From a virus, in UHGV virus genome UHGV-1685692: a stretch of 43,420 nucleotides of DNA, one strand, 5' to 3'. Under the pieces are notes generated by a model. The model was not told the DNA's origin. It did no database searches and was given only the letters and a program-made list of their open reading frames with translations. Below, in pieces: positions 23,933 through 29,229 of the stretch (position 1 is the first letter of the stretch; each line of letters starts with the position of its first letter). The translations under genes were made by a program, and so were the position numbers.

Positions 23933-23957
23933 TAAAGCTCCTTCGGGAGCTTTTTTG
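23933..23957 (+). terminator. rho-independent terminator ending the structural operon
   Basis: aaagctcc-ttcg-ggagcttt followed by tttt. Confidence 0.55.
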
Positions 23958-23997
23958 TGCTTAAATCATGTCAATATAGCGAAATTTTGAGCATATT

Positions 23998-24294
23998 ATG
24001 GAAATTGATTTTTCATACTCTCCTGAAACGATAGAACGAAGATTCGAAATAATTGGATGCAAAACTATTTCCGAGGAGCATTATTGGATTCTCTATGATG
24101 CCAATACATGGTTATGTGCCTTAGCAGAATGTCAGCCATCGTTATGTGTAGGGGAGGGGGCTTTTCGACATAAGGTGCTGGCTACACTTGAAGTGAACAC
24201 GTTACGATATTGGTGTGTAGAAATACTTAGTGATAACAAAGAATTGCACTTATTATTGCTGAATAAGTGTGCTTCTCTGCGCAGAAAAGCATGA
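23998..24294 (+). CDS. hypothetical small protein in the AT-rich island (convergent with the DUF3800-like cassette)
   Basis: 98-aa ORF, no clear RBS, AT-rich codon usage; a plus-strand hairpin with T-run lies at about 24420-24460. Confidence 0.3.
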   Translation: MEIDFSYSPETIERRFEIIGCKTISEEHYWILYDANTWLCALAECQPSLCVGEGAFRHKVLATLEVNTLRYWCVEILSDNKELHLLLLNKCASLRRKA

Positions 24295-24459
24295 AAAAAC
24301 CCAACCGCTCTCCCGGAATTATCAGAAGAATATGTGCGGAAAGTTATAGCTAGCTATTGAAAAGCTAAAGTAGATCGGTTAGATTTGCATTACTCATCTA
24401 CCATGTGTAGAAAGAGCGATCGAACCCGATACATAGCAATATGTGTCGGGTTCAGCTTT

Positions 24460-24924
24460 TTATGTCCCAAGTGCTCTTTTTCTGCTTTGTTTGAGTGTTC
24501 TGATTTTACTGTCATAGGTTACAACATAGGCTGTTTTGAGAAGCCAATAGTCTCTACGTGCGGATAGCACAACAACGTAGTTTTCACACTCATTCCAGAT
24601 TACCCACTCTTCAGTTGGTCCTCGTCTTTCAGACCAACATGATATATCGCAATGGTTATAATTCCTTATCATGTGCGCGATCCAGCGAATTCGCTTGCAC
24701 CGTTCAAGATCGGGTATACGTTCTTCTTCTATTTTTCCCTCTGATACTAAATGCCAAAATCCGAATTCTTTCCCATTATATTCCGGTGAATAACGTAATC
24801 GAACAGGGAGACCCTTAAACGTTATATTAGATATTAAAATATCTTCTCTAACAACATCATATACATCGTCTATATACTCTTGCCAACTTCCATTGAAGTA
24901 CAATAAATCTGGCATTTGAAGCAT
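24460..24924 (-). CDS. hypothetical protein, second gene of the AT-rich cassette (translationally coupled)
   Basis: ATG at 24922-24924 overlaps the upstream stop (TGATG) and is preceded by GGGAGG; about 154 aa; contains RIRWIAH / RNYNH segments (possible R-x4-6-H, weak); no confident domain. Confidence 0.5.
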   Translation of the reverse strand: MLQMPDLLYFNGSWQEYIDDVYDVVREDILISNITFKGLPVRLRYSPEYNGKEFGFWHLVSEGKIEEERIPDLERCKRIRWIAHMIRNYNHCDISCWSERRGPTEEWVIWNECENYVVVLSARRDYWLLKTAYVVTYDSKIRTLKQSRKRALGT

Positions 24925-25628
24925 CAGCGAGCCTCCCACACGAAAATATTAAATTTACTTTCTGTTGGAAGAGTACTTTTTAGTAACTCCCTGTTTGTAT
25001 GTGATTTTATTCTGTTTATGACTTGGATTTTTCCCGCGTTGCTATTCATTCCTCGATGAACGTAGCCTAACGCGCCAATGAAAAGATCCGTTAGCTGCAA
25101 TTGCTGCACTTCATGAGATCGTATATGTTGAATTCTGTTTATCGACTCATGATTGTAATCATAGCGATCATTGTGAAGAACCCCTCTTAATTTCTCAATT
25201 TTTTCAATACCTAAAGTATCTTTTATATCTAGGTAGATATTGTATGTGTTGTTACTTTCTATTATGTTTTTTAAGACATAAAAAAACATCTTATAATAGA
25301 AAGTATTATGATCTTGATGGAATCGAGCATGGTCCAGTTGCTCTTTATCAGGAACAACAACACCTCTAAAGCGCAATGCAGGGTTGCTGAAGAAGTAATC
25401 TACGACATCTAAGTAAAATTCAACTTTGGACGCAGATACTTTAGTCCACTTGATTTCGAAATCAGGTTTTAGATTGTGTTTTAATTTTAATTCCTTGATG
25501 TCTCTAGCAATTTTTTTTGTGATAGTGCCGGGACACCAAAGCGCACCCAATACCATGACTTTATTATGATCATTTAGTAGGTGACAGGATTCATCGCAGA
25601 ATACATTAAATGTTCTTCGGTTCAACAT
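24924..25628 (-). CDS. DUF3800-like protein (N-terminal DES motif), first gene of the AT-rich cassette
   Basis: 234 aa; FNVFCDES near the N-terminus and QLQLTDLFIGALGY near the C-terminus fit the DUF3800 pattern as I recall it; AGTGGAG RBS; visibly AT-rich relative to flanking phage genes. Confidence 0.55.
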   Translation of the reverse strand: MLNRRTFNVFCDESCHLLNDHNKVMVLGALWCPGTITKKIARDIKELKLKHNLKPDFEIKWTKVSASKVEFYLDVVDYFFSNPALRFRGVVVPDKEQLDHARFHQDHNTFYYKMFFYVLKNIIESNNTYNIYLDIKDTLGIEKIEKLRGVLHNDRYDYNHESINRIQHIRSHEVQQLQLTDLFIGALGYVHRGMNSNAGKIQVINRIKSHTNRELLKSTLPTESKFNIFVWEAR

Positions 25629-25764
25629 GTTAACTCCACTTATTGTTAGGTAGAATTGTCCGTTAGTTGTTTATTAATTGCAATAATGGGGCGTCCAGTT
25701 TTGGCAACAGTGTCCTCTTACCAGGACACCTATGAGTTTGCCTCATGGCAAACTAGAGGTGTTG

Positions 25765-25781
25765 AAAGTATGCATGGTTAT
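25765..25781. promoter_or_regulatory. degenerate C1-operator-like sequence in the promoter region of the AT-rich cassette
   Basis: Minus strand reads ATTGCTCTAATTATAAC: first 11 nt identical to the operator consensus, 12/17 overall; located just after the repL stop. Confidence 0.25.
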
Positions 25782-25796
25782 AATTAGAGCAATTCA

Positions 25797-26642
25797 TTAC
25801 CCTCTGAATCCTGCCGGTATACCCCATTGTTCGTTATCTTTATTTTTGGCTAAAACCGCATTAAGAGCTTCGTTTACCGTCATGCAATGCGGCAGATTAT
25901 CGAAGTTTGATACCCCGCCAATATCAGGAGAACGCTTGTTCTTCAGGTAAGCATATTTCCGCGCTGCCGCCTCTACTTTCTGCTTGAACTCATGTTTTTG
26001 TGCGCGTTTTTTGGATAACCGCAGATTGTCAGCCTTTGCTTTTGCCTCAGCGATCCATGAAGTCAATTTTTTGAGTCTGGTCGTTCCGGCACCGCCGGAA
26101 ACTGATCTTTTTGTTTTTTTAACTTGTGACTTCTTATTCTTTATTGCCACGTCATCCTGACAGGGGGAGGGGGTATCATTTTGACATGGGGGTGTGGATA
26201 AAAAATTAAATAAAGCCAATGTCTTAGCGAGAACAGCTTTAACCTTGGTTGCCGCTGAAGAGATCTTTAATTTGCTTTCAATCAGCGCATTTTTGGCTTG
26301 TTGTGCGAAGGCCAAAAAGGATGGCGTAAACCGGTACAGGTTAGCGCGACGTTCACGGTGATCGCCGATAACAATCTCTACAGACAGAATTCCTTTGTTT
26401 ACAGCTTCACGGAATGCACGAACGACGGTTGATTGGCTATAACCAGTTTCTGCCGCGATCAGGCGGTGGGGCTTGTGAATGAAGTATTCACTGGTTGTTG
26501 CCGCGAGATTTGCACATTGCGACAGGATATGCCCGGCGCTACGGGATAGACCGGAGTGTGTTACAAAGAAGGCCAATTCATAGCCAGAAAAAGTAAAATC
26601 GCTCATCGTTATACAGCTCAGGAAAGTGACTTTAGCCAGCAT
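25797..26642 (-). CDS. repL: lytic replicon initiator RepL-like protein
   Basis: 281 aa (the length I recall for P1 RepL); helix-turn-helix-like segment TGYSQSTVVRAFREAVNKGIL; basic C-terminal region; immediately downstream of kilA under a C1 operator. Confidence 0.55.
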   Translation of the reverse strand: MLAKVTFLSCITMSDFTFSGYELAFFVTHSGLSRSAGHILSQCANLAATTSEYFIHKPHRLIAAETGYSQSTVVRAFREAVNKGILSVEIVIGDHRERRANLYRFTPSFLAFAQQAKNALIESKLKISSAATKVKAVLAKTLALFNFLSTPPCQNDTPSPCQDDVAIKNKKSQVKKTKRSVSGGAGTTRLKKLTSWIAEAKAKADNLRLSKKRAQKHEFKQKVEAAARKYAYLKNKRSPDIGGVSNFDNLPHCMTVNEALNAVLAKNKDNEQWGIPAGFRG

Positions 26643-26671
26643 TACAATGCTGGTGGTTCTTACTACGTCTG

Positions 26672-27472
26672 TTAGCGCGTTGCCGCGACAGGTACCAGCA
26701 CACCAGCATCAAGCAATCGCTTCATCAGCCACTGCTGACCTTTGCCGGTTATACGAGTCGTGAAAGAAATCCTGCTTCCATTGCTTGTATCGATCACGGT
26801 TTCTTTAAGGGTGAAATACCCACGGGATATGTATTCTTGTTTGGGGACGTTCCTGCGTTCACCGGTTGCGATCAGAATTCCGTTATCACGCAACCAGGTG
26901 AAGAGATAGTTTTGGCCCAGGCCGAGCACTTTGGCATAGTTGCCGATTAGAACCCCGCTGGCGGTAGCAACGCGTTCGGCGAATTCGACTTTAGGTGCAT
27001 CCATCAGCATTTTTTGCTCCAGCCGTTGCTTTTGCTCTGCCAGGTCAGCAGCCAAACGGAGAGCTTCTGGGAGGCTCTTCGGAATAGCAGGTTGTAATCT
27101 TCCGGCTCGATAGTCGATAAATGTCTGGTTTACCTTCAGCCGAAACGCGGGAGAAATCCAGCCTGCGTACTCCACTGCGAGCAATTCATGGGCAAAAGTG
27201 CCGCCGCCACGGCCTTCGAACGAAACTATGCAATTCTGCATAGTTTCTTTTTCAAGCTCTTCGATGAGCTGTTTGGCTGACAGCGTTCTTAGCCATTGAG
27301 CTGGCGCTTTATGGGCACCGAGTCCGCTCGCTCTGTGTAGAGCATTAAGGTTGTAACGGCCAGCGCGGTCGGTCGTAATTTCAACACCACAAATAACGGG
27401 CAGAGTGGTTGAAGGATCGACATTTTGATGAAGGTTTGATATATTCATATCCGCATTGAATGTTTGTTGCAT
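26672..27472 (-). CDS. kilA: KilA (KilA-N DNA-binding domain plus Bro/KilA-C-type C-terminal domain)
   Basis: 266 aa; N-terminal KilA-N-like region; the C-terminal half is paralogous to the C-terminal half of the downstream Ant-like protein (LPEALRLAA(D/E)LAEQK...KV(E/D)FA(E/D)RV, GKGQQWL); C1 operator upstream. Confidence 0.7.
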   Translation of the reverse strand: MQQTFNADMNISNLHQNVDPSTTLPVICGVEITTDRAGRYNLNALHRASGLGAHKAPAQWLRTLSAKQLIEELEKETMQNCIVSFEGRGGGTFAHELLAVEYAGWISPAFRLKVNQTFIDYRAGRLQPAIPKSLPEALRLAADLAEQKQRLEQKMLMDAPKVEFAERVATASGVLIGNYAKVLGLGQNYLFTWLRDNGILIATGERRNVPKQEYISRGYFTLKETVIDTSNGSRISFTTRITGKGQQWLMKRLLDAGVLVPVAATR

Positions 27473-27541: not shown

Positions 27542-27558
27542 AAATTTATTAGAGCAAA
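27542..27558. promoter_or_regulatory. C1-repressor operator controlling the kilA-repL operon (Op53-like)
   Basis: AAATTTATTAGAGCAAA is the reverse complement of the operator with one mismatch; lies about 85 nt upstream of the kilA start. Confidence 0.65.
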
Positions 27559-29212: not shown

Positions 29213-29229
29213 AAATTTATTAGAGCATT
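29213..29229. promoter_or_regulatory. C1-repressor operator (Op51-like) in the divergent region between the immunity operon and the secreted-protein gene
   Basis: AAATTTATTAGAGCATT is the reverse complement of the operator with one mismatch. Confidence 0.6.

What the first reader, a model, noticed from the sequence alone, without database searches (positions are those of the whole stretch)
25765..25781. Operator-like half-site placed between repL and the AT-rich cassette
Right after the repL stop and inside the promoter region of the cassette lies ATTGCTCTAATTATAAC, whose first 11 nt are identical to the conserved half of the C1 operator. If functional, the cassette would be wired into the lysogeny/lysis decision separately from the upstream kilA-repL operon. 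A hairpin gtttgcc-tcatg-gcaaac (25736-25755) precedes it.
Basis: inference. Interest (0 to 1): 0.4.

Follow-up and report, generated by a model that had tools for sequence, protein, structure and literature searches.

The report
Known P1 C1 operator Op55 (Orlf)
The flagged sequence is real but already catalogued: it is phage P1's C1-repressor binding site Op55 (Orlf), just after the lytic replication gene repL, so the finding is a correct re-discovery and not something new.

Summary
The window is a P1-like phage-plasmid, 99.3% identical to phage P1 here. ATTGCTCTAATTATAAC exists once, on the minus strand at 25777-25793. That is 12 nt from the stated 25765-25781. It starts 3 nt after the repL stop codon. 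It coincides base for base with the curated P1 feature "monovalent C1-controlled operator Orlf; former Op55", and with P7's Op(rap).

Its 11-nt core is a perfect match to the C1 operator consensus. Its last 6 nt score no better than random sequence. A matrix built from the other 19 annotated P1 half-sites gives it 15.2 bits, rank 18 of 20, next to the accepted lpa operator Op94.

New context from this work:
- The core is the last conserved stretch before a known low-GC cargo hotspot (23957-25782).
- In 58 of 64 viral contigs, and in all but three of the rlfAB-less plasmid rows displayed (98 of 515 matching plasmids carry rlfAB), homology stops exactly after the core.
- Other cargo, such as a Hok/Gef toxin, then replaces rlfA-rlfB-pmgF.
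- RlfA and RlfB match PADLOC candidate defence families PDC-M04A and PDC-M04B.

No convincing promoter overlaps the site, and no terminator separates repL from rlfA. How the site acts on rlfAB is therefore still inferred. Verdict: already known, low interest.

The parts
25777..25793 (-). C1 operator Op55 / Orlf: ATTGCTCTAATTATAAC
   Evidence: Single exact match. Maps base for base to the P1 record protein_bind feature 51575-51591, 'monovalent C1-controlled operator Orlf; former Op55', and to P7 Op(rap). PWM score 15.2 bits, rank 18 of 20 annotated half-sites.
25783..25793 (-). 11-nt operator core ATTGCTCTAAT, on the conserved backbone side of the cargo junction
   Evidence: 11 of 11 match to the consensus, 19.3 bits. 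Kept in 68 of 69 P1-like sequences. Homology to rlfAB-less relatives ends at 25783.
25777..25782 (-). 3' six bases of the operator (TATAAC), which belong to the rlfAB cassette side
   Evidence: Replaced by CTGGAG or CTGGGG in 59 of 69 sequences. Right-half score -4.2 bits, the 27th percentile of random 6-mers.
25797..26642 (-). repL, the lytic replication initiator gene that contains oriL; its stop codon lies 3 nt upstream of the operator
   Evidence: ORF list; P1 annotation; tblastn finds 98-100% identical RepL in P1-like phages and plasmids.
25735..25754 (-). Hairpin 1: AGTTTGCC-ATGA-GGCAAACT, 8-bp stem, no following T-run
   Evidence: Present in the MFE fold. Not called as a terminator. P7 has a stem mismatch with no compensating change.
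25710..25729 (-). Hairpin 2: GTGTCCT-GGTAAG-AGGACAC
   Evidence: Read from the sequence and lies within the folded region. This is the most variable part of the intergenic region among rlfAB-type loci.
25655..25683 (-). PrlfA as predicted in the P1 record: TTGCAA-17-GACAAT
   Evidence: P1 annotation. My weighted score is 9.07, which equals the mean best score of shuffled sequence, 8.8. Not found by the consensus scan.
24924..25628 (-). rlfA (DUF3800; PADLOC PDC-M04A)
   Evidence: Pfam DUF3800, E = 3.5e-14. PADLOC PDC-M04A, E = 1e-95. P1 annotation.
24460..24924 (-). rlfB (PADLOC PDC-M04B)
   Evidence: PADLOC PDC-M04B, E = 3.5e-52. PHROG 16230, labelled 'replication protein', which is a name only.
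23957..25782 (.). Variable low-GC cargo segment (pmgF-rlfB-rlfA plus leader) between repL and bplB
   Evidence: blastn against RCS47, phi456 and SJ46. GC profile. Described as variable region 5 of P1-like phage-plasmids in PMC9603915 and in PMC6906374.
27542..27558 (-). Op53 / OrepL, the operator overlapping the kilA-repL promoter P53; 1765 bp upstream of Op55 and in the same orientation
   Evidence: TTTGCTCTAATAAATTT; P1 annotation.

Best explanation
The site is Op55 (renamed Orlf), one of the roughly 20 scattered asymmetric operators of the phage P1 C1 repressor. It is present here in a P1-like phage-plasmid and its sequence is identical to P1's. This part is shown.

It is a core-only operator. 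The 11-bp ATTGCTCTAAT carries all the recognisable information and the 3' six bases carry none. This resembles the accepted operators Op94 (lpa) and Op99c. It is therefore probably a low-affinity site whose occupancy depends on the C1 level and the co-repressor Lxc.

The proposed mechanism is inferred. In the prophage, C1 bound 3 nt after the repL stop stops transcription arriving from the repL side from entering rlfA-rlfB. That transcription could start at a weak promoter overlapped by the operator, or it could be read-through from kilA-repL or its internal promoters. When C1 is inactivated, rlfAB are transcribed early, largely as the distal part of lytic-replicon transcription.

I put the identity as Op55 at about 0.95. 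I put the mechanism at about 0.5.
For: Identity:
- The region is 99.3% identical to P1, and the intergenic sequence is identical to P1.
- The coordinates map exactly onto P1 Orlf/Op55 and P7 Op(rap).

Quality of the site:
- Perfect core; 15.2 bits; rank 18 of 20. It sits next to Olpa/Op94 at 15.7 and above Oc1c at 8.3.
- It is the 6th best site in the window, after five orthologues of established operators.

Orientation:
- It points the same way as rlfA. Most monovalent P1 operators point the same way as the gene they control.

Mechanism:
- No terminator-like site lies between repL and rlfA.
- In P1vir RNA-seq, rlfA and rlfB reach 6.36 and 6.02 at 10 min. That is on a declining gradient from kilA (8.55) and repL (7.55), above late structural genes (about 3-5), and similar to the C1-controlled lpa (6.6) and ban (6.9).
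- Weak promoter candidates overlap the operator: TTCAGA-17-AATTAT and TTGCTC-16-TACTTT. TTGCTC serves as the -35 in the annotated ban, pmgR and pmgT promoters.
Against: - I could not reach any primary binding data. The Lobocka 2004 and Velleman 1987 papers are not held. "C1-controlled" therefore rests on the GenBank annotation.
- No promoter candidate overlapping the site scores above chance. The annotated PrlfA is about 95 bp downstream, too far for simple occlusion by a monomer.
- A single monomeric repressor is a weak roadblock.
- The RNA-seq comes from the virulent mutant P1vir in lytic growth, so it says nothing about repression in a lysogen.
- The slot holds accessory cargo elsewhere (Hok/Gef, an Ail/Lom protein, a candidate defence system). 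Such genes are often expressed in lysogens.
- The site is no better conserved than its surroundings. One natural variant carries a core mutation.
- SJ46-type elements keep Op53 and Op51 but have no operator after repL.
Confidence: 0.55

Rival explanations
1. C1 binds the site, or can bind it in vitro, but this has no regulatory consequence. The 11-mer persists only because it lies on the conserved repL side of a single ancestral cargo junction.
For: - The 3' half is random-like.
- In most P1-like elements the 3' half is CTGGAG, among the worst 3% of 6-mers.
- There is no excess conservation relative to neighbouring sequence, and one locus has a core mutation.
- SJ46-type elements lack the site but keep the other operators.
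- rlfA, rlfB and pmgF are dispensable for plaque formation (PMC10695390).
Against: - A perfect 11-mer core is expected about 0.02 times per window by chance. In this window the other two exact copies lie in functional operators.
- Accepted operators with equally poor 3' halves exist: Op94 and Op99c.
- The site is oriented with rlfA, and rlfAB show early expression.
Confidence: 0.2
2. The classical reading of the annotation and of the first reader. Op55 is the operator of a separate rlfA-rlfB operon that is driven by PrlfA. C1 at Op55 represses that promoter independently of P53.
For: - The P1 and P7 records name it the operator of rlf/rap. P7's note says it regulates the two downstream genes.
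- The distance from operator to start codon is 165 nt. That is within the 36-195 nt range of other P1 operators.
Against: - PrlfA is only a prediction and scores at chance level.
- Its -35 is about 95 bp from the operator, with two hairpins in between. All other P1 operators with an assigned promoter overlap or abut it.
- No terminator isolates rlfAB from repL.
Confidence: 0.12
3. Op55 serves the lytic replicon and not the cassette. It would either be an auxiliary operator that loops with Op53, 1.77 kb away, to tighten repression of kilA-repL/oriL. Or it would repress an antisense promoter that reads back into repL/oriL.
For: - Op53 and Op55 bracket kilA-repL in the same orientation.
- A perfect -10 hexamer TATAAT lies on the plus strand at 25779-25784, inside the operator and pointing into repL.
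- P1 already has an antisense promoter in kilA, PaskilA.
- C1-mediated looping between the Op99 operators is described in the older literature. This is from my own knowledge (Heinzel et al. 1994, J Biol Chem) and was not checked here.
Against: - The antisense -10 has no acceptable -35 or TG extension.
- Four of its six bases come from the cassette-specific part of the operator, so it is absent from the majority CTGGAG form.
- SJ46-type elements run the same replicon without the site.
- There is no direct evidence for looping here.
Confidence: 0.08
4. The site is a chance resemblance with no relation to C1.
For: Only 12 of 17 positions match the consensus, and the 3' half is random-like.
Against: - The exact 11-mer core is expected about 0.02 times per window.
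- The site is orthologous to a curated and previously named operator.
Confidence: 0.02

Closest known systems
Phage P1 operator Orlf (former Op55), NC_005856 51575-51591; P7 Op(rap), AF503408 54292-54307
   Same: Identical 17-mer, identical position 3 nt after the repL stop, and identical flanking intergenic sequence to P1. It is the same element in a close relative.
   Different: Nothing at the site itself. P7 differs from P1 and the window only in the stop-codon region and in the hairpins downstream.
P1 Olpa (Op94) ATTGCTCTAATGTATTG and Oc1c (Op99c) ATTGCTCTAACGCTTTA, core-only operators
   Same: A perfect or near-perfect 11-nt core with a non-consensus 3' half, and similar PWM scores: 15.7 and 8.3 against 15.2.
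   Different: Olpa's 3' end overlaps the -35 of the proven promoter Plpa. Op55 has no convincing promoter next to it.
P1 OrepL (Op53), the operator of the kilA-repL promoter P53
   Same: Same repressor, same orientation and same replicon module. Present in the window at 27542-27558.
   Different: Op53 has a consensus 3' half (24.5 bits) and its core TCTAAT is the -10 of P53. Op55 sits at the end of that operon, not at its promoter.

Membership tests
P1 C1-controlled operators | Match to the asymmetric 17-bp consensus ATTGCTCTAATAAATTT, especially the conserved first 11 bp | tested here: met
   The core matches 11 of 11. The whole site scores 15.2 bits on a PWM built from the other 19 annotated half-sites, rank 18 of 20. 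In the 3' half only 1 of 6 bases matches and the score is random-like, as in accepted operators Op94 and Op99c.
P1 C1-controlled operators | Orthology to a named operator of the P1/P7 reference genomes | tested here: met
   Maps base for base to Orlf/Op55 of NC_005856 and to Op(rap) of AF503408.
P1 C1-controlled operators | Resides in a genome that uses the C1 repressor system | tested here: met
   c1 itself lies outside the window. The window does carry the orthologues of Op53, Op68 and Op72a/b, plus a consensus site (29213-29229) at the position expected for Op51, with 0-2 mismatches. It is 99.3% identical to P1 across 24800-26800.
P1 C1-controlled operators | Overlaps or abuts the promoter it controls | tested here: inconclusive
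   The consensus scan finds no promoter. My weighted scan finds only chance-level candidates overlapping the site, at 6.85 and 6.07 against a shuffle mean best of 8.8. The same scheme gives the proven P53 only 3.55, so the test has little power. The annotated PrlfA is about 95 bp away.
P1 C1-controlled operators | Physical binding by C1 and C1-dependent repression in vivo | not testable with these tools
   This rests on the GenBank notes ('C1-controlled', 'former Op55'). The primary papers are not in the held library.
Intrinsic terminator at the end of the kilA-repL operon (considered for the hairpin) | GC-rich stem-loop followed by a T-run | tested here: not met
   The 8-bp stem is present, but it is followed by CATAGGTG and not by a T-run. 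The terminator scan finds nothing in 25550-25950.
PADLOC PDC-M04 candidate defence system (the cassette downstream) | Adjacent genes that match the PDC-M04A and PDC-M04B profiles | tested here: met
   RlfA matches PDC-M04A at E = 1e-95 and RlfB matches PDC-M04B at E = 3.5e-52. The two genes are adjacent and overlap by one base. Anti-phage activity itself is untested, and no paper mentioning PDC-M04 was found.

The most novel reading that the evidence does not exclude
The 11-bp operator core is a backbone feature that marks the exact left edge of a cargo slot after repL. Whatever cassette lands there is placed under C1 and lytic-replicon control. In the rlfAB lineage this would mean a candidate two-gene defence system (PDC-M04, DUF3800) is kept silent in the prophage and switched on only at induction. 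That would be a defence or exclusion function serving the lytic phase and not the lysogen.
Probability: 0.15. Interest if true: 0.45.

Novelty: already known. Interest (0 to 1): 0.1.

Why it matters
For the operator itself it matters little.

The modest added value is context:
- The site is a core-only operator.
- Its core coincides exactly with the conserved edge of a known cargo hotspot of P1-like phage-plasmids.
- The cargo in the P1 lineage, rlfAB, matches a candidate anti-phage defence system.

Whether that cargo is C1-repressed or expressed in the lysogen is a small, directly testable question. It is relevant to how phage-plasmids regulate accessory genes.

Tried and rejected
- Literature. 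Searches for Op55, for Op53/Op72/Op99 and for PDC-M04 returned nothing relevant. Two searches failed because a term was too short. The P1 genome paper and the 1987 PNAS operator paper are not held. The old lytic-replicon record X15639 annotates no operators.
- Terminator reading of the hairpin. Rejected: no T-run and no scan hit.
- Known RNA family in the leader or cassette. None found in Rfam at E up to 1.
- Promoter prediction. The consensus scan finds nothing. My weighted scan cannot separate any candidate from shuffled sequence, and it under-scores the proven P53. It therefore cannot decide the mechanism.
- Conservation as evidence of function. The sequences are too similar, with only 5 distinct intergenic sequences among 11 rlfAB-type loci. 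The operator is no more conserved than its flanks.
- Distant comparison. The only divergent RepL in the phage collection is D6 at 27% identity. Its gene order differs, with repL followed by the immI region, so it is not comparable.
- Cassette in another context. In the plasmid rows displayed, the rlfAB cassette never appeared without repL next to it. I could therefore not test whether the cassette brought its own operator.

Full report
**1. What is in the sequence**

The 17-mer ATTGCTCTAATTATAAC occurs once in the window, on the minus strand at 25777-25793. The finding gave 25765-25781, which overlaps the real site by only 5 nt.

repL is the 281-codon minus-strand ORF at 25797-26642. The site therefore begins 3 nt after the repL stop codon...GGG TAA TGA ATTGCTCTAAT....

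The hairpin is real. In the transcribed orientation it reads AGTTTGCC-ATGA-GGCAAACT, at 25735-25754. It has an 8-bp stem and a 4-nt loop, and it is part of the minimum-free-energy fold. In the direction of repL and rlfA transcription it follows the operator instead of preceding it.

A second hairpin, GTGTCCT-GGTAAG-AGGACAC, lies at 25710-25729. Folded as RNA, the 172-nt intergenic region has a z-score of -3.6 against shuffles.

**2. Is it more than chance?**

Yes.
- The exact 17-mer is never seen in shuffles.
- The 11-mer core with at most one mismatch occurs 5 times against 0.89 expected.
- The other four copies lie within the 17-mers that match the full consensus with at most 1 mismatch: 8178-8194, 11454-11470, 27542-27558 and 29213-29229.
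- Three of these map to operators annotated in the P1 record: Obana/Op72a, Odmt/Op68 and OrepL/Op53. The fourth (29213-29229) sits where I expect Op51; that stretch of the P1 annotation was not fetched.

**3. Identity**

- Window 24800-26800 is 99.3% identical to phage P1 and 98.2% identical to P7.
- The curated P1 record has a protein_bind feature at 51575-51591: [quoted passage not shown]. It maps base for base onto window 25777-25793.
- The P7 record has the same feature, "Op(rap); regulates expression of upf50.5 and upf51.2(P1)".
- The window, P1 and P7 have identical 17-mers. The window is identical to P1 across the whole intergenic region.

The finding is therefore a re-discovery of a catalogued operator. 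PMC8546580 states that C1 binds 22 dispersed operators with the asymmetric consensus ATTGCTCTAATAAATTT. I could not open the primary binding papers or the P1 genome paper. "C1-controlled" therefore rests on the database annotation.

**4. How good a site is it?**

I extracted all annotated P1 half-sites. I then scored each with a matrix built from the others.
- Op55 scores 15.2 bits: 19.3 bits from the perfect 11-nt core and -4.2 bits from the last six bases.
- It ranks 18 of 20. It sits next to Olpa/Op94 at 15.7 and above Oc1c/Op99c at 8.3 and Oc1b at -4.6.
- In the window it is the sixth-best site, after the five strong consensus sites. The next unannotated site scores 11.5.
- Sites at 15.2 bits or better are expected 0.185 times per shuffled window.
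- The 3' half TATAAC is no better than 27% of random 6-mers, or 40% on an AT-rich background.

"Half-site" is therefore a fair description. By sequence this should be a weak, core-only operator.

**5. Surroundings**

Downstream on the minus strand lie rlfA (24924-25628) and rlfB (24460-24924). pmgF (23998-24294) is on the other strand.

GC content falls to 31-41% here, against 47-52% in the flanks.

blastn against RCS47, phi456 and SJ46 shows that window 23957-25782 is a replaceable segment with conserved flanks. The literature already lists rlfA-rlfB-pmgF as a low-GC variable region of P1-like phage-plasmids (PMC9603915 and PMC6906374). It also lists these genes as non-essential for plaques (PMC10695390).

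What I add is the exact junction.
- Homology ends at 25783, between operator positions 11 and 12.
- Among 69 P1-like sequences (64 IMG/VR contigs, phage records and the window), the core is intact in 68.
- The last six bases are TATAAC only where rlfAB follow, in 10 sequences. They are CTGGAG or CTGGGG in the other 59.
- In PLSDB, 98 of 515 matching plasmids carry rlfAB. In the rows displayed, all but three of the others match only up to the last base of the core.
- The CTGGAG form scores 2.5 bits overall. Its right half is among the worst 3% of 6-mers.

The alternative cargo differs by lineage.
- The majority form has a small membrane protein plus a Hok/Gef toxin (Pfam E = 2.4e-22).
- SJ46 has an Ail/Lom-type outer-membrane protein.
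- SJ46 diverges already inside the 3' end of repL. It has no operator-like site after repL, yet it keeps the Op53 and Op51 orthologues.

RlfA is DUF3800 (Pfam E = 3.5e-14). RlfA and RlfB match the PADLOC candidate defence families PDC-M04A (E = 1e-95) and PDC-M04B (E = 3.5e-52). PHROGs adds only the label "replication protein" for RlfB.

**6. How does it work?**

The P1 record predicts PrlfA as TTGCAA-17-GACAAT at 25683-25655. That is about 95 bp downstream of the operator, with both hairpins in between. Every other P1 operator with an assigned promoter overlaps or abuts it.

The consensus scan finds no promoter or terminator in 25550-25950 on either strand. My weighted scan gives these scores:

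| Candidate | Score |
|---|---|
| PrlfA (annotated) | 9.07 |
| Mean best score of shuffled sequence | 8.8 |
| TTCAGA-17-AATTAT, sense, overlaps the operator | 6.85 |
| TTGCTC-16-TACTTT, sense, overlaps the operator | 6.07 |
| P53 (experimentally proven) | 3.55 |

The plus strand also carries a perfect TATAAT at 25779-25784 with no usable -35. Because the proven P53 scores so low, sequence alone cannot settle the promoter question.

Two indirect observations favour transcription entering rlfAB from the repL side.
- There is no terminator-like site after repL.
- In P1vir RNA-seq (PMC8201110, Table S1), WT log fold change at 10 min declines smoothly: kilA 8.55, repL 7.55, rlfA 6.36, rlfB 6.02. 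Late structural genes sit at about 3-5. The C1-controlled lpa and ban are at 6.6 and 6.9.

rlfAB therefore behave as early genes. The data come from a virulent mutant in lytic growth and say nothing about repression in a lysogen.

The operator points the same way as rlfA, as do most monovalent P1 operators relative to the gene they control.

Conservation is uninformative. Eleven rlfAB-type loci give only five distinct intergenic sequences. Variation clusters in the hairpin region (25687-25744). The operator has one variable position, a core C-to-T change in a single locus. The stretch from PrlfA to the rlfA start is invariant. No Rfam family matches the region.

**7. Best explanation and rivals**

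I take as shown that this is Op55/Orlf.

I infer, at about 0.5, that C1 bound here with help from Lxc keeps transcription from the repL side out of rlfAB in the prophage. Loss of C1 would then let rlfAB be expressed early, largely as the tail of lytic-replicon transcription.

The rivals are:
- A binding site with no regulatory consequence, kept only because it lies on the conserved side of a single ancestral cargo junction (about 0.2).
- The classical separate operon, with PrlfA repressed from 95 bp away (about 0.12).
- A role for the replicon itself, by looping with Op53 or by repressing an antisense promoter (about 0.08).
- Chance (about 0.02).

The accessory nature of the cargo in this slot argues somewhat against simple repression in the lysogen. 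That is why the mechanism stays at moderate confidence.

**8. Comparison with what is known, and novelty**

The element is the known operator. It meets the sequence and orthology criteria of the C1 operator family. The promoter-overlap criterion is inconclusive. Physical binding cannot be tested here.

Novelty is "already known". The only new points are contextual:
- The site is a core-only operator.
- The hotspot junction coincides exactly with the end of the core.
- rlfAB match PDC-M04.

Interest is low, at 0.1. The most novel reading not excluded is that the core acts as a regulated docking point which puts whatever cargo follows repL, here a candidate defence system, under C1 control. I give that a probability of about 0.15 and moderate interest if true.

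Noticed in passing
window 24460-25628 (minus strand): RlfA (DUF3800) and RlfB, long annotated as 'replication-linked functions', match the PADLOC candidate defence families PDC-M04A (E = 1e-95) and PDC-M04B (E = 3.5e-52). No paper mentioning PDC-M04 was found.
   Followed up: partly
window 25782/25783; variable segment 23957-25782: The repL-side junction of the known rlfA-rlfB-pmgF variable region falls exactly between operator positions 11 and 12. 58 of 64 viral contigs, and all but three of the rlfAB-less plasmid rows displayed (98 of 515 matching plasmids carry rlfAB), lose homology right after ATTGCTCTAAT.
   Followed up: yes
L005 (phage phi456) 2882-3037 and 3219-3395, minus strand: In the majority arrangement the slot after repL holds a Hok/Gef-family toxin peptide (Pfam E = 2.4e-22) and a 58-aa membrane protein in place of rlfAB-pmgF. 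The Hok/Gef ORF is not annotated in that record.
   Followed up: partly
L006 (Salmonella phage SJ46) 2826-3341, minus strand: The gene after repL is annotated 'replication protein RepL' but is an Ail/Lom-type outer-membrane beta-barrel protein (Pfam E = 1e-22 to 2e-24). This is probably a mis-annotation. SJ46 has no operator-like site after repL.
   Followed up: partly
L004 (RCS47) 1185-1201 plus strand; L006 (SJ46) 1671-1687 plus strand: An unannotated operator-like site, AATGTTCTAATAAACTA (12 bits), lies about 30-50 nt upstream of the plus-strand cargo gene that replaces pmgF in these elements.
   Followed up: no
window 25779-25784, plus strand: A perfect -10 hexamer TATAAT sits inside the operator and points antisense into repL/oriL. 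It has no acceptable -35 or TG extension. It is absent from the CTGGAG form.
   Followed up: partly
window 3623-3639, plus strand: The best operator-like site in the window that is not an annotated operator is ATTGCATTAATAATCCT (11.5 bits). It maps to the dbn/gene 5 boundary of P1, where the record lists no operator.
   Followed up: no
window 25710-25729 and 25687-25744: A second perfect hairpin (GTGTCCT-GGTAAG-AGGACAC) lies in the rlfA leader. This stretch is the most variable part of the intergenic region. P7 shows one double (compensatory) change, one wobble and one mismatch in the stem.
   Followed up: partly
one IMG/VR locus of the rlfAB type (L033 or L045; not resolved which): A natural variant has a mutation in the operator core, ATTGTTCTAAT. 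Position 5 is C in 18 of the 19 other P1 half-sites.
   Followed up: no
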